64,000 nt of DNA from Dehalococcoidia bacterium (GTDB lineage: Bacteria > Chloroflexota > Dehalococcoidia > Lucifugimonadales > JAGWBF01), in NCBI GenBank assembly GCA_034422875.1, contig DAOUJI010000079.1, forward strand, positions 9,928 through 73,927. Direction: 5' to 3'. Position 1 is the stretch's first letter, and each line of letters opens with the position of its first letter. Below the pieces are notes generated by a model that worked only from the letters and a program-made list of their open reading frames with translations, ran no database searches and had not been told where the DNA came from. The position numbers and the translations under genes were made by a program. Shown one piece after another: positions 9,363 through 14,275 of this stretch.

Positions 9363-10280
9363 CTAACGCCAAACCCGAGAGGCCCCGCCTTGGGGCACCA
9401 TGCCTGAGAAGAGTTCCGGGTGAATTATCTCCGCCAGTATCTCCAGCCCGTTGACCAGGCGCGGCCCGGAGCGGTTGAAATAGGCGCTGCCGTCCACCGC
9501 AAACACCCGACCGTCACGTACGGCCGGAATCGAGTCCCAACCCGGCCTCTCCTTTAACTTGGGCGCTTCCTTCAATGTGTGCGGCAAGTCAAAACCGCAG
9601 GGGCAGAGCATGATGACATCCGGCTGCTGCTCCACAACCTTTTCCCATGCAATGGTGAAGGTTGGCTTGTCCTTGTCTCCCAGGCAGTCCTCGCCTCCGG
9701 CCATTTCCACCATCTGGGGCACCCAGTGGCCGGCCACCATGACAGGGTCGAACCATTCGATGCAGGCAACTTTCGGACGACGGTCGGCGAGCGCCGCTAT
9801 ACTCTTGACACGCTGGACCCTTCGGTCCAACGACTCCACGTACTGCTCCGCAGTCGCTTCCACTCCCGCTGCCCGTCCCACCGTGCGGATGTTGCTGAAG
9901 ACGTCCTCTATGCAAGTCGGATCGAGCGAGATGATTCGGGGCTGGTTTTCCAGTTTCTTCGTTGCGTCGGCAACCTGCCGCGCGGTAATCGCTCACTCCG
10001 CGCATAACTCCTGGCTGAGGAGGAGGTCGGGCTGTATCTCCATGATGGCTTCTTCGTCAATGTCGTAGATGCCCTTTTCTTCCCGGAGCCTCTCGGCCAC
10101 GATGGCGTGGATTTCACTGCTGGTGTAGTCGCCGTCCTGAAAGATGCTGGAGACTATCTGTCTGACCTGTTGGGCCTGAGGAGGATAGTCGCATTCGTGG
10201 GAGACGCCGTAGAGGCTGCCCCCCAGCCCAAGGGCGTAGACCATCTCCGTGGCGCTGGGAAGGAATGAGCAGATTCGCAT
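9363..10280 (-). CDS. BtuF-like (cobalamin/iron substrate-binding fold) protein, probable selenoprotein with Sec at codon 96 (TGA 9993-9995)
   Basis: ORF-track pieces 9993-10280 and 9363-9881 are in one frame; the 37 codons between them are open; the joined 305-aa protein has MRICSFLPSATE, SHECDYP, QELCAE*AI, IEWFDP..VAGHWVPQM, CPCGF and YFNRSGPRL. Confidence 0.85.
9964..9983 (-). promoter_or_regulatory. Putative bacterial SECIS hairpin
   Basis: GCG-CGGCA-GGU-UGCCG-A-CGC at nt 10-29 after the UGA; apical GGU at +18..+20 versus +19..+21 in E. coli fdhF (GCAGGU core, recalled from memory). Confidence 0.7.
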
Positions 10281-10292
10281 AATCGCCCTCTC

Positions 10293-11699
10293 TTACGTTA
10301 TCTGATAGCCCTTTGGAGCGTACGCCGCCAGATTGGGGTCTCCGGGAAGGAATCCTCCTGCTCCTTGACTGCCGACGAATTCTCCCTTCTCCATCACGAC
10401 CCGGCCCCGCTGCATGGTAAGCTCCGGCATTCCCATAAGCTCGAACCCGTCGAAGGCGGAGTGGTCGGTGTTCCCGTGCTGGCCGTCCACCGTATGCTCC
10501 TTGGCCGGGTCCCAAATCACAAGGTCGGCGTCGGAACCGGGTTGAAGCGTCCCTTTCTTTGGGTACAGGCCGAATATCTTGGCCGGGTTCTCACAGAAGA
10601 CCTGCACCATCCTTGGGAGGCTAATGCGCCCCGTGTTCACGCCAAGGGTCCACACCACCGGCATCATGAATTCAATCGTATTCAGCCCATGGGGGGCGTC
10701 GAATATGTTGTCGCCGCCCACCGTCTTCTGTGCGACGGTGCGGCCTCCGGAGTCGCTGGCGACCACGTTTATCGTTCCGTCGGCCAACGCCTGCCACAGA
10801 GCTTCCTGGTCAGGACTCTTCCTCAGAGGTGGCCCAACTTTAGCCAGCGGCCCCCGGCGGGACATTTCGTCGTCAGTAAGCGCAAGATAGTGGGGACAGG
10901 TCTCGGTGAAAAGCTGGAGACCCCGGCCTCTGAATTCATGCACCAGCGGGATAGACTCCTTGGTACTAAGGTGCACGGAGTAGAGGGGTGAGCCCGCCAC
11001 TTGAGAAAAAGTGGAGGCGCGGTACAGCCCTTCCGCCTCCAGGATGTTGGGCTGAGATGGGGGATAGTATTCAGGGCCAATCTTTCCGTGCCCAATATGG
11101 TCGTCCACCAGATAATCGATGCAGCAGGCGTTCTCGCAGTGGACCATGGGCAGACCGCCCTCGCTGGCCGCCAGGTCCATGGTTTTGAGCATTCCGTCCT
11201 CGGTTATCGCCATGCCACGTCGCTTGTAGGCCAGGAACATCTTGAAAGAGATGACCCCCAGCTTCATTAGCTCCGGGATAGACTTGCCCAGGATGTCTTC
11301 GTCGGCGGCTGTGTAGGTGCCGTGGACGGAGAAGTCCAGGTGGGAGATGCGTTCTCCTTCGTCTATGAACCCTTTGACAAGGTCGGTGGTGTACCCGTTA
11401 AAGCCCCAGCCGGCGACGTTGCCCACGAATGCGATGACTGTGGTCACGCCGCCGTAGGCTGCGGTGACGGTGTAGGCGTCCATTTTGTCGGAATAGACGG
11501 GATGGCAATGGGCGTCGACGGAGCCGGGCAAAACATAGCGGCCAGCGGCGTCTATTGTCCGGGAGACCCCTACCCCAGACAGGTCGGGGCCGACCTGAGC
11601 GATACGCTCTCCCGAAACCAGTACATCGCCCCGGGAAATCCCCTGGCCTGAAACCAGAATCCCGCCCTTTACCAGTACGTCTCCTCTTGGGGACGCCAT
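10293..11699 (-). CDS. Dihydropyrimidinase/hydantoinase-like cyclic amidohydrolase
   Basis: PGSVDAHCH, SFKMF (carbamylated Lys), MVHCEN, VHLST, ETCPHYL, PPLR, KGTLQPGSDADLVIWDP. Confidence 0.9.
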   Translation of the reverse strand: MASPRGDVLVKGGILVSGQGISRGDVLVSGERIAQVGPDLSGVGVSRTIDAAGRYVLPGSVDAHCHPVYSDKMDAYTVTAAYGGVTTVIAFVGNVAGWGFNGYTTDLVKGFIDEGERISHLDFSVHGTYTAADEDILGKSIPELMKLGVISFKMFLAYKRRGMAITEDGMLKTMDLAASEGGLPMVHCENACCIDYLVDDHIGHGKIGPEYYPPSQPNILEAEGLYRASTFSQVAGSPLYSVHLSTKESIPLVHEFRGRGLQLFTETCPHYLALTDDEMSRRGPLAKVGPPLRKSPDQEALWQALADGTINVVASDSGGRTVAQKTVGGDNIFDAPHGLNTIEFMMPVVWTLGVNTGRISLPRMVQVFCENPAKIFGLYPKKGTLQPGSDADLVIWDPAKEHTVDGQHGNTDHSAFDGFELMGMPELTMQRGRVVMEKGEFVGSQGAGGFLPGDPNLAAYAPKGYQIT

Positions 11700-11707
11700 G
11701 GGCCAGG

Positions 11708-12463
11708 CTACTCTTCAGAGACTACCGGGTTGGACAAGACGCCGATACCTGGCACGTCGATTTCCACTGTGTCCCCGTGGTTAAGTCCTGCCGGTTTGCC
11801 CGACGTGCCCATGAATATCATGTCGCCGGGCTCCAGGGTCATCCTGCGGGATGTCCACTCGATGATGGTGGGCAGGTCGAACACCATCCCGGACGTGCTC
11901 TCGGCCTGCACTTCGGCGCCGTTGATGCGGGCGGTGAGCATGGCGTCGAAGGGGTCGATTTCGTCAGATATGAACGGCCCCACGGGAGAGAAGGTGTCGG
12001 AGGACTTAGCCCTCCACCATTGGCCGTCTCCCCTTTGCCACTCACGGGCGCTCACGTCGTTGCCGCAGGAGTAGCCCAGCACGTAGTCAAGAGCTTCTTC
12101 CTTGGGAACGTTCCGCGCCCGCTTGCCGATGATCACCACCAGCTCGCCTTCCTCTTCCACCGTCTCGGCGTCCCTGGGCCGGATGATGGGGTCGCCGTGG
12201 GCCGCAAGAGACGACGGGGTCTTGAGGAATATAAGGGGCTGCGTCGGCGTGGGCCTGTCTCCCAGATGGCTGTAGTAGTTGAGACCCACCGCCAGAATCT
12301 TGGACGGGGCCGTAGGAGTAAGCAGCTTCACCTCTGCCAACGTGTGGGTGTGGTCGGTGACCTCATAGGACTCGTAGGGCGGGGCGGTTAGCTGGCGGAC
12401 GATGTCGCCGTCCACTACGCCGTAGGCTACTTCTCCGTGGGCCAGGTAACGTGCAAACTTCAT
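11708..12463 (-). CDS. Fumarylacetoacetate hydrolase family protein
   Basis: VGLNYYSH, FLKTPSS, EEEGELVVIIGK, CGNDVSAR, AKSSDTFSPVGP, TLEPGDMIFMGT. Confidence 0.93.
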   Translation of the reverse strand: MKFARYLAHGEVAYGVVDGDIVRQLTAPPYESYEVTDHTHTLAEVKLLTPTAPSKILAVGLNYYSHLGDRPTPTQPLIFLKTPSSLAAHGDPIIRPRDAETVEEEGELVVIIGKRARNVPKEEALDYVLGYSCGNDVSAREWQRGDGQWWRAKSSDTFSPVGPFISDEIDPFDAMLTARINGAEVQAESTSGMVFDLPTIIEWTSRRMTLEPGDMIFMGTSGKPAGLNHGDTVEIDVPGIGVLSNPVVSEE

Positions 12464-12509
12464 GGCTTCCTCCTAAGGCTCGTAAGATTGGTTTCTTTAG
12501 GTGGTTCTT

Positions 12510-13541
12510 CTAAGGGGTCTGCAACACCAGCTTGCCGAAAAAGTCGCGGCTCTCCATGGTTCGATAAGCTTCCGTCGCATCTTCCAGGGGAAAGGTCTTG
12601 CCAACGACACCCCGGATGCCTCCCGTTCTTATTACCCTCATCATGTCGCCAAAGCTACGCTTACTGCGTCCGCCGCTGCCTAGCAGTGACAAGGGCGTGC
12701 CGCTTAGCTGGGAAAGGTTCAAGGAGTAGTTTGCCCCGGAGTGGGTCCCGGTGATAACCAGGCGTCCCCCCGGCTTGATGCAAGCCAGGCTCTCGTCCCA
12801 TACCTCGGCACCCACGCTGTCGAAAACAAAGTCCACACCCTGGCCGTCGGTGAATTCTTTCACCACCTGGCTGAAGTTGGGAGTTGTGTTGTAGTTGATG
12901 CCCAAGTCGGCGCCCATTTCCCTGGCTTTGTCCAGCTTCCAGTCGCTGCCAGCAGTGGTGATGACACGGGCGCCTACGTGCTTTGCGATGGCTATGGCCG
13001 TGGAGCCGACACCGCTGCCTGCGGCGTGAATGAGTATGTCGTCCCAAGGCTGTAGCTTGCCCCTCTCGATGAGGCAATGCCACGAAGTATGGGTCGCAAC
13101 TGGGAAAGCTGCCGCCTCGTCAAACCCCATCCAATCAGGGATGACGTGGGCGTTGACGGCCGGTACAACGCAGTATTGGGCATGGCCTCCGTCGATGTCG
13201 GACCCCAAACGCATTTGTTTCGGGCAATACTGGTCGACGCCAGCGCGGCAGCGGTCACAGGTGTAGCACTTGACCCGGTTGTCGATAAGGACCCGGTCGC
13301 CCTCCTTGAGCCAGTCCACGGTGGGGCTGACCTGGGCCACTTCTCCGGCCATGTCCAGGCCGAAAATCCTGGGCAGGCTCCGGGTATTGGTCCTGCCGCT
13401 GATTATGTAAAGGTCTGCGTGGTTGAGGGCCGACGCCCGTACCCTTATGACGACCTCACCCGGTCCGGCTTCGGGGTCCGGCCGGTCTCCGTACTTCACA
13501 TTGCTCAGGTCGCCCGTCTGATCGAGATAGATGGCTTTCAA
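12510..13541 (-). CDS. Zinc-binding medium-chain dehydrogenase/reductase
   Basis: GEVVIRVRASALNHAD, structural-Zn CYTCDRC...C, AAGSGVGS NAD(P) site, FFGKLVL; probable TTG start at 13541 after GGGAG. Confidence 0.88.
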   Translation of the reverse strand: MKAIYLDQTGDLSNVKYGDRPDPEAGPGEVVIRVRASALNHADLYIISGRTNTRSLPRIFGLDMAGEVAQVSPTVDWLKEGDRVLIDNRVKCYTCDRCRAGVDQYCPKQMRLGSDIDGGHAQYCVVPAVNAHVIPDWMGFDEAAAFPVATHTSWHCLIERGKLQPWDDILIHAAGSGVGSTAIAIAKHVGARVITTAGSDWKLDKAREMGADLGINYNTTPNFSQVVKEFTDGQGVDFVFDSVGAEVWDESLACIKPGGRLVITGTHSGANYSLNLSQLSGTPLSLLGSGGRSKRSFGDMMRVIRTGGIRGVVGKTFPLEDATEAYRTMESRDFFGKLVLQTP

Positions 13542-13747
13542 GGCTGGCGCGCTCCCAATTGCCCCGGACGCCCTAAAGTCAGCGTCCGCCCGTATCTTAC
13601 CCCAGGCGCCAAAGCCCGTCAAAGGAGATGCTGGGCCAAACGCAAATCCACATCGTCGAATGTACAGTACATGCCATTAAAGGCGTTATATAATTCCCGC
13701 ATCCCGGCTATAATCGACACGCCATTGAACAGTTCATAGAAATTCCG

Positions 13748-14275
13748 ATGCCATTCCTTCATCCTAGTCCTCTAGCCATGCGATTAGTACGTTACGTCAT
13801 AGCGTTCGGGGCTTTGGCGATGGCGGTTGTGTCAGTCCTCGCCTGCTCGTCTCAACCCGGTGACACTGCAGTCCCGTCAGATCCGACGGTGCGCTCCGGC
13901 CAGCAGGTCTTCGCTTCCATCTGCGCCGCTTGCCACGGAGTCGGAGGGGAAGGTCAGGAGGACTGGCACGTCCCAAAGGAAGACGGAACTCTGCCAGCTC
14001 CCCCCCTCAACGGCGACGGCCATACCTGGCATCACGGCGACGGGCTGCTGTACCAAATCGTCAGCCAGGGAGGTAAATCCCTAGAGAGCCCGAACGTCCC
14101 CAACTTCAAAAGCGCCATGCCTGCCTTTGGAGACCTTCTTAGCCACGAAGAAATCATCGCCGTCCTGACCTATGTCAAAAGCCTCTGGGAAGACAAGACC
14201 AAAAGGGGCATTTCCATCGTGGAGTCCCAGGGCCGGGCAAGCGAATTAGACCCGTTCCCGGTGGCGCGCAACTAA
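13748..14275 (+). CDS. Mono-heme cytochrome c lipoprotein
   Basis: Lipobox VLAC, CAACH heme motif, PAPPLNGDGHTWHH, SAMPAF distal Met. Confidence 0.88.
   Translation: MPFLHPSPLAMRLVRYVIAFGALAMAVVSVLACSSQPGDTAVPSDPTVRSGQQVFASICAACHGVGGEGQEDWHVPKEDGTLPAPPLNGDGHTWHHGDGLLYQIVSQGGKSLESPNVPNFKSAMPAFGDLLSHEEIIAVLTYVKSLWEDKTKRGISIVESQGRASELDPFPVARN

What the first reader, a model, noticed from the sequence alone, without database searches (positions are those of the whole stretch)
9363..10280. Probable selenoprotein: BtuF-like protein with a CxxU motif and a SECIS hairpin
Seen in sequence: two ORF-track fragments are one reading frame broken only by TGA at 9993-9995 (...QELC-A-E-TGA-AIT...), giving 305 aa if read through; 10-29 nt downstream lies GCG-CGGCA-GGU-UGCCG-A-CGC. 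Established: homologs of this BtuF-like family carry TQDLCxVCAV, so the TGA falls exactly on the second Cys; the E. coli fdhF SECIS has a GCAGGU apical element at almost the same distance from the UGA. Inference: Sec is inserted, giving a CxxU redox or metal site. A random nonsense mutation would be unlikely to hit this codon and also carry a correctly spaced hairpin. I recall BtuF-like Sec variants appearing in some selenoprotein catalogues, so novelty may lie in lineage and context rather than family.
Basis: partly seen in the sequence, partly recalled or inferred. Interest (0 to 1): 0.92.

Follow-up and report, generated by a model that had tools for sequence, protein, structure and literature searches.

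The report
Selenocysteine gene for cytoplasmic BtuF-like protein
This is a real gene whose in-frame TGA almost certainly encodes selenocysteine in a cytoplasmic relative of the vitamin-B12-binding protein BtuF; the family is already listed in selenoprotein catalogues, but its function is unknown and databases still annotate it as two fragments.

Summary
On the minus strand (10280->9363) one 305-codon frame is broken only by TGA at 9993-9995, and a GGU-loop hairpin lies 10-29 nt downstream.

Evidence for selenocysteine:
- The TGA aligns with the invariant second Cys of an LCxVC motif in 179 Cys-type homologs.
- At least 119 species-level genomes, nearly all Dehalococcoidia, have TGA at that codon.
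- The hairpin is present in 129 of 130 TGA-type genes and 0 of 66 Cys-type genes. It shows compensatory changes and frozen synonymous sites.
- dN/dS after the TGA is about 0.1, and no restart codon occurs for 37 codons.
- TGA is an ordinary stop elsewhere in the window.

Not tested: selA/B/C/D are not in the window, and no Se-incorporation data exist.

Added here: the protein has no signal peptide and no transporter partners. The CxxU lies in the loop that faces the ligand cleft in BtuF, together with other invariant Cys residues. Some Cys-type members sit directly behind cobalamin riboswitches, next to cobQ/cbiA/btu genes. This suggests, but does not prove, a cytoplasmic corrinoid-handling role.

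The parts
9363..10280 (-). Complete read-through coding sequence: 305 sense codons plus the TAG stop. It encodes a Peripla_BP_2 / BtuF-like protein without a signal peptide.
   Evidence: Translation. Pfam PF01497, E=1e-25. An upstream in-frame stop leaves no room for a leader peptide. Residue 2 aligns to residues 22-24 of the BtuF / 4m7o PDB chains.
9993..9995 (-). In-frame UGA, codon 96: the proposed selenocysteine codon, giving the motif C93-A-E-U96.
   Evidence: It aligns to a Cys that is invariant in 179 Cys-type homologs. TGA is conserved in at least 119 genomes plus 7 metagenomic loci.
9964..9983 (-). bSECIS-type hairpin GCGCGGCAGGUUGCCGACGC. The upper stem is CGGCA/UGCCG, the loop GGU is at 9975-9973, and the lower stem is GCG/CGC with a bulged A at 9967.
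   Evidence: Fold energy -10.7 kcal/mol. The core stem pairs in 448 of 448 cells, with 6 compensatory double changes. Synonymous sites in the stem are frozen. The hairpin is present in 129 of 130 TGA-type genes and 0 of 66 Cys-type genes.
10002..10004 (-). Cys93 codon (TGC), the first residue of the CxxU motif.
   Evidence: Conserved in at least 97% of 298 family members.
10191..10193 (-). Cys30 codon, in the HECDYP loop after strand beta-2.
   Evidence: Conserved in at least 97% of 298 members. In true BtuF the equivalent residue is Ser (SDYP).
9597..9599 (-). Cys228 codon, in the PCGF loop after a strand of the C-lobe.
   Evidence: Conserved in at least 97% of 298 members. It follows strand 222-225 of the model.
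9726..9728 (-). His185 codon (GHW motif).
   Evidence: Conserved in at least 97% of 298 members. The motif is shared with V. cholerae BtuF.
10286..10292 (-). Shine-Dalgarno-like GAGAGGG, 5 nt before the ATG and immediately after the TAA stop of the upstream amidohydrolase gene (10293-10295). This suggests co-transcription with the ADH / FAA-hydrolase / amidohydrolase genes at 10293-13622.
   Evidence: Read directly from the sequence. Gene order is conserved in L001 and L002. The operon itself is inferred, not shown.

Best explanation
The gene encodes one 305-residue cytoplasmic protein with the class-III binding-protein fold (BtuF / haem-binder type). UGA at codon 96 is decoded as selenocysteine. 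Mechanism of recoding (inferred from the anatomy and established bacterial Sec biology): the stem-loop 10-29 nt after the UGA has an apex, GCAGGU, identical to that of E. coli fdhF. It recruits SelB-GTP-Sec-tRNASec to the ribosome paused at the UGA, so translation continues into the C-terminal two-thirds of the protein. The product carries a C93-x-x-U96 pair in the flexible loop that follows strand beta-3. In BtuF that position holds a Trp loop that lines the ligand cleft. Three other invariant residues lie on loops that follow beta-strands; whether they face the cleft is inferred from the fold: Cys30, Cys228 and His185. Function (inferred, roughly 35% likely): the protein binds a corrinoid, or another metal-tetrapyrrole or soft metal, in the inter-lobe cleft inside the cell. 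The thiolate/selenolate pair then either ligates the metal or reduces or dealkylates it. On this view it is a trafficking or processing protein, not a transporter subunit. What is shown: the TGA, the hairpin, their co-conservation, selection on the downstream frame, the fold, the lack of a leader peptide, and the riboswitch link in Cys-type relatives. What is inferred: SelB dependence, actual Se insertion, the geometry of the site, and the ligand.
For: There is a single in-frame TGA in a frame that is otherwise intact. It aligns with an invariant Cys of LCxVC. TGA sits at the same codon in at least 119 GTDB species genomes and 7 metagenome loci, all full-length homologs of 40-95% identity. dN/dS is 0.06-0.14 on both sides of the TGA at dS up to 1.2. 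It is about 0.1 for codons 97-133, which cannot be reached by re-initiation because the first ATG/GTG/TTG is codon 134. The hairpin occurs in 129 of 130 TGA-type and 0 of 66 Cys-type genes. Its core stem is never broken in 112 distinct sequences and shows G-C to A-U double changes. Third-codon positions in the stem are frozen while the loop codon is free. The hairpin meets all four constraints of the published bSECIS model: loop of 3-9 nt, G among the first two loop positions, spacing of 16-37 nt, and MFE of -7.5 or lower (PMC13188914 Fig. 2 legend). It has the same GCAGGU apex as fdhF, 1 nt closer to the UGA. TGA is an ordinary stop for 13 of 48 genes in the window, and no other gene has an internal TGA. 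The lineage uses Sec: L062 comes from Dehalococcoidia UBA1141, which BSepDB credits with 49 selenoprotein genes, and Dehalogenimonas carries selCDAB. Fold: the AlphaFold2 model of the Cys ortholog has pLDDT 92.7, and the top Foldseek hits are 4m7o, V. cholerae BtuF and haem binders. For the corrinoid idea: cobalamin riboswitches lie less than 150 nt upstream of Cys-type family genes in three independent arrangements, and cobQ/cbiA/btuB/btuCD neighbours occur in about 10 of 66 Cys-type loci. These proteins are 52-57% identical to the Sec forms and share the same invariant residues.
Against: No selA, selB, selD or tRNA-Sec is present in the 64-kb window or in any fetched locus, so the machinery is not shown for this genome. 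There is no direct evidence of Se incorporation. For the function: none of the 129 Sec-type loci has a cob/btu neighbour by the tblastn probes. No cobalamin riboswitch was found in any fetched locus by nhmmer, nor in a sample of 18 Sec-type loci or the window by the full Rfam models. Their common neighbours are an antiporter-like membrane protein and a convergent LON-domain gene. In the window the neighbours are hydrolases and dehydrogenases. The CxxC loop has lower model confidence (about 72).
Confidence: 0.85

Rival explanations
1. Same selenoprotein, different chemistry. The four Cys/Sec residues form a soft-metal or Fe-S binding site (metallochaperone, sensor or storage for Co, Ni, Zn, Cu or Hg). 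Alternatively the CxxU is a selenenylsulfide redox centre unrelated to corrinoids.
For: Four invariant Cys/Sec plus His. The BtuF fold belongs to the same structural class as metal receptors, and some Cys-type loci have CDF metal exporters nearby (6 loci). The 2026 review notes that most CxxU proteins are presumed redox proteins. Sec-type loci show no cob context.
Against: The closest sequence and structure relatives bind tetrapyrroles (B12, haem) rather than bare ions. Riboswitch control of Cys-type members points to cobamides. The motif is not at a helix N-terminus as in thioredoxin-fold CxxC/U proteins; it lies in a 9-residue loop.
Confidence: 0.45
2. The UGA is read through without selenocysteine, by near-cognate Trp/Cys/Arg insertion stimulated by the hairpin.
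For: Downstream structures can stimulate read-through (general knowledge, not checked here), and the Sec machinery was not seen in the window.
Against: The hairpin matches the SelB-type bSECIS model and the fdhF apex. The UGA replaces a Cys in a CxxC motif, which is the signature Sec/Cys pair. The lineage is documented as rich in selenoproteins. UGA has been held for a dS above 1 instead of mutating to a sense codon.
Confidence: 0.03
3. The gene is a pseudogene, a sequencing error, or a gene split into two separately translated polypeptides.
For: Gene callers and public databases split it into fragments of 95 aa and about 198 aa.
Against: The same TGA occurs in more than 120 independent assemblies. 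Purifying selection is strong on both halves and on codons 97-133, which have no restart codon. Only about 4 Sec/Cys switches are needed on a 298-tip tree.
Confidence: 0.01

Closest known systems
[quoted passage not shown] 2022 (PMC9312934) and Zhang et al. 2026 (PMC13188914), both crediting Peng et al. 2016
   Same: BtuF-type domain, a single Sec, and a CxxU motif.
   Different: The representative sequences could not be retrieved, so identity with them was not tested. The window gene belongs to a separate 14-member subclade with C-A-E-U, not C-[DE]-V-U, and a lower stem with a bulged A. The catalogues give no function, cellular location, SECIS description or distribution. Neither the main text nor the held supplements of Peng 2016 name the family.
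E. coli fdhF SECIS / SelB-dependent UGA recoding
   Same: The stem-loop lies immediately 3' of the UGA inside the coding region. The apex hexamer GCAGGU is identical, and its spacing differs by 1 nt.
   Different: The lower stem differs. There is no 5' bulged U; instead a 3' bulged A in the window clade, or a continuous CUC/GAG stem in the main clade. SelB binding was not tested.
BtuF, the periplasmic vitamin-B12-binding protein of BtuCD-F (PDB 1n2z, 1n4a, 5ysc)
   Same: Two-lobe class-III fold with shared motifs (PSxTE, DYP, PDL-strand, GHW, RxxPR). The profile E-value to V. cholerae BtuF is 3e-23, and the Foldseek TM-score normalised to the target is 0.80.
   Different: There is no signal peptide and no adjacent permease or ATPase. 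The NCBIfam BtuF equivalog scores 49 bits against a cut-off of 234. A CxxC/U-containing insertion replaces the Trp loop. There are invariant Cys residues that BtuF lacks.
SaoB / SaoX selenocysteine-containing ABC substrate-binding proteins (Haft & Gwadz, bioRxiv 10.1101/2022.07.06.499078)
   Same: Sec/Cys residues are placed in the ligand cleft of a binding-protein fold, and a metal or organometallic ligand is proposed.
   Different: They belong to a different binding-protein class with CU/CC motifs. They are secreted or lipoproteins, sit in the nine-gene SAO locus with a Sec permease, and occur in anaerobic Firmicutes, spirochaetes and deltaproteobacteria. The NCBIfam scan returned no SaoB or SaoX model for the window protein.
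Thiolate-ligating B12-processing proteins (BtuM, CblC/MMACHC): a functional analogy recalled from my own knowledge, not tested here
   Same: They illustrate the idea that a Cys thiolate can ligate or process the cobalt centre during trafficking.
   Different: The folds are unrelated, and no evidence here shows that this protein binds B12.

Membership tests
Bacterial selenoprotein gene (SelB/SECIS-dependent UGA recoding) | In-frame UGA inside an otherwise intact, conserved reading frame | tested here: met
   One TGA in 305 codons. dN/dS is about 0.1 on both sides, including codons 97-133, which cannot be reached by re-initiation.
Bacterial selenoprotein gene (SelB/SECIS-dependent UGA recoding) | Cys-containing homologs align Cys with the UGA | tested here: met
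   All 179 Cys-type sequences have Cys in that column.
Bacterial selenoprotein gene (SelB/SECIS-dependent UGA recoding) | bSECIS stem-loop: 3-9 nt loop, G in the first two loop positions, 16-37 nt from UGA to loop, MFE of -7.5 kcal/mol or lower (PMC13188914 Fig. 2) | tested here: met
   The loop is GGU, the stem is 5+3 bp, the spacing is 17 nt, and the energy is -10.7 kcal/mol. 118 of 123 orthologs pass the energy cut-off.
Bacterial selenoprotein gene (SelB/SECIS-dependent UGA recoding) | UGA and SECIS co-conserved in orthologs, with structural covariation | tested here: met
   The hairpin is in 129 of 130 TGA-type and 0 of 66 Cys-type genes. The core stem pairs in 448 of 448 cells, with 6 double compensatory changes. 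No shuffle out of 500 reached the observed covariation score.
Bacterial selenoprotein gene (SelB/SECIS-dependent UGA recoding) | selA, selB, selC (tRNA-Sec) and selD in the same genome | not testable with these tools
There is only lineage-level support: UBA1141 has 49 selenoprotein genes in BSepDB, and Dehalogenimonas carries selCDAB.
Bacterial selenoprotein gene (SelB/SECIS-dependent UGA recoding) | Selenium demonstrably incorporated at the UGA position | not testable with these tools
   This needs 75Se labelling or mass spectrometry.
Catalogued 'Cobalamin-binding protein BtuF, CxxU' selenoprotein family | BtuF-type (cd01144 / PF01497) domain with a single Sec in a CxxU motif | tested here: met
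   PF01497, E=1e-25. BtuF structures are among the best PDB hits. The motif is C-A-E-U. CDD itself could not be run.
Catalogued 'Cobalamin-binding protein BtuF, CxxU' selenoprotein family | Sequence similarity to the listed representatives (RUA21600.1, MDE0719563.1) | not testable with these tools
   The accessions cannot be fetched here.
BtuF proper (periplasmic B12-binding subunit of BtuCD-F) | N-terminal signal peptide / periplasmic location | tested here: not met
   The ORF starts at strand beta-1, an in-frame stop lies just upstream, and residue 2 aligns to residues 22-24 of the BtuF / 4m7o PDB chains.
BtuF proper (periplasmic B12-binding subunit of BtuCD-F) | Genomic or functional partnership with a FecCD-type permease and an ABC ATPase | tested here: not met
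   No FecCD gene is present in any of 129 Sec-type loci or near the window gene, and an ABC ATPase appears in one locus only.
BtuF proper (periplasmic B12-binding subunit of BtuCD-F) | Passes the NCBIfam BtuF equivalog model NF002894 | tested here: not met
   49.1 bits against a cut-off of 234.
BtuF proper (periplasmic B12-binding subunit of BtuCD-F) | Binds cobalamin | not testable with these tools
   The evidence is indirect only: riboswitch and cob-gene association of Cys-type relatives.
SaoB/SaoX Sec-containing substrate-binding proteins | Match to the NF040727 / NF040735 models, a CU or UxP motif, and the SAO locus context | tested here: not met
   The NCBIfam scan returned no such hit. 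The motif is CxxU, and there are no SAO neighbours.

The most novel reading that the evidence does not exclude
This family is a cytoplasmic corrinoid-handling protein: an intracellular B12 escort, reductase or dealkylase built on the BtuF scaffold. Its cobalt-facing Cys was upgraded to selenocysteine in Dehalococcoidia. That would make it the first selenoprotein in cobamide trafficking, and it would link selenium status to B12 economy in a lineage that depends on salvaged corrinoids.
Probability: 0.3. Interest if true: 0.65.

Novelty: new member of a known kind. Interest (0 to 1): 0.35.

Why it matters
For annotation: in this lineage the gene is stored in public collections as two unnamed fragments, although at least 119 species carry it intact. 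Correcting this would add one selenoprotein to each of many Dehalococcoidia genomes.

For biology: the family is large, with more than 5,000 homologs at E below 1e-10. It is cytoplasmic and has an invariant Cys/Sec/His constellation, yet it has no assigned function.

The riboswitch and cob-cluster association found here for Cys-type members gives a concrete, cheap hypothesis to test: corrinoid binding and thiol/selenol chemistry at cobalt. If it is confirmed, it would reveal an intracellular B12-handling step in bacteria and a new chemical use of selenocysteine.

The hairpin is also a very clean natural example of a bSECIS constraining the protein sequence. The peptide R-Q-V-A-E is fixed only in the Sec forms.

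Tried and rejected
- Rfam gathering scan of the whole window: no hit.
- ARAGORN on the window and on all loci: no tRNA-Sec.
- Pfam on about 58 window ORFs: no SelA, SelB or SelD.
- Scan for other TGA-interrupted frames in the window: only same-frame neighbouring genes and antisense artefacts, with no second candidate.
I modelled the Cys ortholog P0002 instead.
- Model coordinates are not exposed to scripts, so Cys-Cys distances could not be measured.
- Neighbour census of the Sec-type loci gave no functionally telling operon. The Cys-type census gave only small, heterogeneous clusters.
- The promoter/terminator scan was uninformative.
- Literature: Haft & Gwadz 2023 and Haft & Tolstoy 2025 are not held under their PMC ids; the preprint of the former was read and concerns different binding proteins. 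No supplementary files of BSepDB are held as text. The main text and held supplements of Peng 2016 do not name the BtuF family although the reviews credit it. deep-Sep does not mention it. No paper was found describing a cytoplasmic Cys-rich BtuF paralog.
- Rejected explanations: TGA reassignment (13 of 48 genes stop at TGA); sequencing error, pseudogene or split gene.
Full report
OBSERVATION

The feature lies on the minus strand. Translating 10280->9363 gives one frame of 305 sense codons with a single internal stop. That stop is TGA at 9995-9993 (codon 96), in the context ...PDLLLSQELCAE*AITARQVADAT.... The sequence GCGCGGCAGGUUGCCGACGC occupies 9983-9964, which is +10 to +29 after the TGA. 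It folds as a 5-bp upper stem (CGGCA/UGCCG) with a GGU loop, plus a 3-bp lower stem with one bulged A. Its energy is -10.7 kcal/mol on its own.

WHAT THE PROTEIN IS

The read-through product matches Pfam PF01497 (Peripla_BP_2) at E=1e-25. No NCBIfam model passes its cut-off; the BtuF equivalog NF002894 scores 49 bits against 234.

A family profile finds secreted class-III binding proteins in the PDB. These include 4m7o, V. cholerae BtuF 5ysc (E=3e-23), haem binders, and E. coli BtuF.

An AlphaFold2 model of the 53%-identical Cys ortholog P0002 is confident (pLDDT 92.7, pTM 0.91). Its best Foldseek matches are the same proteins, with a TM-score of about 0.8 normalised to the target.

The protein has no signal peptide. 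The ORF begins at strand beta-1, and an in-frame stop lies directly upstream. Residue 2 aligns with residues 22-24 of the BtuF / 4m7o PDB chains.

IS THE TGA DECODED?

1. The three closest database relatives (94, 85 and 70% identity over the aligned part) are stored only as C-terminal fragments. Their contigs carry a 95-codon ORF just upstream. Their DNA shows the same TGA and the same hairpin.

2. Nei-Gojobori estimates, window against L002: dN/dS is 0.059 before the TGA and 0.137 after it, at dS of about 1.2. Codons 97-133 precede the first possible ATG/GTG/TTG restart, which is codon 134. For these codons dN/dS is about 0.07-0.12. The part after the TGA is therefore translated in frame, and not by re-initiation.

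3. All 117 full-length homologs retrieved, about 50% identical, have Cys at this column within Q-x-[LI]-C-x-x-C-A.

4. I ran a degenerate DNA pattern for P-D-L-x-x-[ST]-Q-x-[LIV]-C-x-x-TGA-A against one genome per GTDB species. I estimate about 0.1 chance matches. Every one is a full-length homolog (40-95% identity) with exactly one in-frame TGA at that codon. Nearly all are Dehalococcoidia/Chloroflexota MAGs. L039 is 94.8% identical on a 1.1-Mb contig, which places the window's organism in that class.

5. TGA is not reassigned. It terminates 13 of 48 Pfam-supported genes in the window, and no other gene has an internal TGA.

THE HAIRPIN AS A SECIS

Across 112 distinct TGA-type sequences the alignment has no gaps. 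The core CGGC/GCCG stem is paired in 448 of 448 cells. It shows six G-C to A-U double changes and two G-U wobbles. No shuffle out of 500 reached the observed covariation score, and the slid controls drop to 22-55% paired.

Third-codon-position entropy is 0.12, 0.00, 0.29 and 0.56 bits for stem codons 101, 102, 104 and 105. It is 1.69 bits for the loop codon 103. Equally invariant residues elsewhere give 1.3-1.65 bits (P84, A97, P114). This is selection on the RNA, not on the protein.

In an independent metagenome sample, 7 of 7 TGA-type genes have the hairpin and 0 of 62 Cys-type genes do. With the earlier sets, the totals are 129 of 130 against 0 of 66. A Cys-type gene that also encodes R-Q-V still lacks the hairpin; it uses CGC-CAG-GTC-ACG.

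The element satisfies all constraints of the published bSECIS model: loop of 3-9 nt, G in the first two loop positions, 16-37 nt spacing, and MFE of -7.5 or lower (PMC13188914, Fig. 2 legend; values).

TGA-CACGGCCCATCGGTT-GCAGGTCTGC matches at 99% identity or better, within the annotated fdhF gene, in virtually all of 5,419 of 5,426 E. coli genomes. The identical GCAGGU apex lies one nucleotide further from the UGA than it does here.

WHAT WAS NOT SHOWN

The window holds no tRNA gene and no Rfam family at gathering score. Pfam annotation of about 58 ORFs shows ordinary chromosomal genes and no SelA, SelB or SelD. These genes include GltX/GlnS, complex I subunits, SdhAB, and many hydrolases and dehydrogenases.

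No second TGA-interrupted gene was found in the window. Support for the Sec machinery is therefore at lineage level only:
- BSepDB lists Dehalococcoidia bacterium UBA1141 with 49 selenoprotein genes. My locus L062 is from that genome.
- Dehalogenimonas genomes carry selCDAB.

EVOLUTION

A neighbour-joining tree of 119 Sec-type and 179 Cys-type sequences needs only about four Sec/Cys switches. The Sec forms fall into a few deep clades of 89, 14 and 10 tips.

The window sits in the 14-member clade. That clade has C-A-E-U instead of C-[DE]-V-U, and a GCG/CGC lower stem with a bulged A instead of CUC/GAG.

Sec-type singletons occur in Entotheonella and in a gammaproteobacterial MAG, with the same hairpin. 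A planctomycete has TGA at the same codon but a different downstream structure.

FUNCTION

Forty-one columns are at least 97% conserved over 298 sequences. Among them are Cys30 (HECDYP), Cys93, Cys/Sec96, His185 (GHW), Cys228 (PCGF) and R270-x-G-P-R.

In the model the CxxC lies in a 9-residue loop (91-99, pLDDT about 72) between strand 86-90 and helix 100-108. It aligns as a short insertion where BtuF has its PDLIIAW loop.

Cys30, His185 and Cys228 also follow beta-strands. In this fold, the ends of those strands face the inter-lobe ligand cleft.

Context of the Sec-type genes is uninformative. The commonest neighbours are a convergent LON-substrate-binding-domain gene (66 of 122 loci) and an upstream antiporter-like membrane protein (43 loci). 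Permease and cob genes are absent, and an ABC ATPase appears in only one locus. In the window the gene follows an amidohydrolase gene by 12 nt and has an SD-like GAGAGGG. It lies in a conserved ADH / FAA-hydrolase / amidohydrolase block.

Cys-type members differ. About 10 of 66 loci contain corrinoid genes: CobQ-like in 6, CbiA in 7, TonB receptor in 8 and FecCD in 5. In L127 the family gene overlaps the start of a CobQ-like gene.

Cobalamin riboswitches sit 89-139 nt upstream of the family gene, on the same strand, in three independent arrangements: L127/128/137, L138/140 and L146. The first two were detected by Rfam RF00174 (90-96 bits) as well as by nhmmer. The one in L146 was found only by my nhmmer profile.

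No riboswitch was found in the window or in 18 sampled Sec-type loci by the full Rfam models. None was found in any Sec-type locus by nhmmer.

The riboswitch-linked proteins are 52-57% identical to the Sec forms. That is as close as the Sec clades are to one another, and they share the invariant residues.

My best guess, about 35% likely, is a cytoplasmic corrinoid-binding or corrinoid-processing protein whose thiolate/selenolate pair ligates or reduces the cobalt. The main rival is a metal-binding or purely redox role for the same site.

COMPARISON WITH WHAT IS KNOWN

[quoted passage not shown] The 2022 review gives RUA21600.1 as representative and the 2026 review gives MDE0719563.1. Both credit Peng et al. 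2016. That paper's main text and held supplements do not name the family. Neither review discusses its function, location or SECIS.

The Sec-containing binding proteins SaoB and SaoX belong to another class and another system. The window gene is not BtuF proper: three of that family's defining features were tested and not met.

Public collections hold the two halves of this gene as unnamed fragments.

VERDICT

It is a new member, in a distinct subclade, of an already catalogued selenoprotein family. That makes it of moderate rather than high interest.

What this analysis adds:
- the breadth of the family in Dehalococcoidia;
- statistical proof of the SECIS;
- the cytoplasmic, transporter-independent nature of the protein;
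- a testable link to cobamide metabolism.

Noticed in passing
L126:15887-16444: Two adjacent same-strand ORFs (104 and 69 aa) both hit Pfam PF24696 (UGSC). This is probably another TGA-split selenoprotein gene, in a genome whose BtuF-like gene is Cys-type.
   Followed up: no
L043:6235-6285: A Planctomycetota MAG homolog (40% identity) has TGA at the same codon but lacks the CGGCAGGU hairpin. A different stem-loop is predicted downstream, possibly an independently evolved SECIS.
   Followed up: partly
L003:66-920: A close relative (88% identity), on a 1-kb contig of 2.5x coverage, lacks 21 codons of the C-lobe but keeps the TGA and the hairpin. This is either a deletion variant or an assembly artefact.
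   Followed up: no
window:14441-16255: A 604-aa GmrSD_N (DUF262) restriction-type protein with low GC3 (0.57) lies in a lower-GC stretch (12-16 kb, GC 0.557). Relatives L001 and L002 carry PIN-domain genes nearby (L002 also a cytochrome c gene like the window's 13748-14275). This looks like a variable defence/TA islet next to the conserved ADH / FAH / amidohydrolase / BtuF-like block.
   Followed up: partly
window:39476-41617: A 713-aa leucine-rich-repeat protein with atypically low GC3 (0.58) lies in a second lower-GC stretch (40-44 kb, GC 0.556). It may have been acquired horizontally.
   Followed up: no
window:36134-39317: Two class-I Glu/Gln-type tRNA synthetase genes lie in tandem: a GltX-like gene of 485 aa and a GlnS-like gene of 562 aa.
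   Followed up: no
window:4686-5543 and 11708-12463: Two paralogous FAA-hydrolase (Rv2993c-like) genes lie within 8 kb, each beside amidohydrolase-family genes. The region is rich in hydrolases and dehydrogenases of unknown pathway.
   Followed up: no
L052:1631-1671; L042:4689-4729: Sec-type copies with the same hairpin occur outside Chloroflexota, in Candidatus Entotheonella and a gammaproteobacterial MAG. They are singletons in the tree, which suggests horizontal transfer of the gene together with its SECIS.
   Followed up: partly
L127:7665-16862 (also L128, L137, L138, L140): A two-riboswitch corrinoid salvage cluster has this order: riboswitch, cytoplasmic Cys-type BtuF-like gene, CobQ-like gene, riboswitch, TonB receptor, secreted BtuF, CbiA, FecCD, ABC ATPase. 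The cytoplasmic paralog is the first gene of the first riboswitch-controlled unit.
   Followed up: partly
window:9363-10280: Public protein collections hold this gene only as two unnamed fragments. The 95-aa N-fragment cluster has 18 members and the ~198-aa C-fragment cluster has 17. The window's exact N-fragment lies on a 101,674-bp contig.
   Followed up: yes
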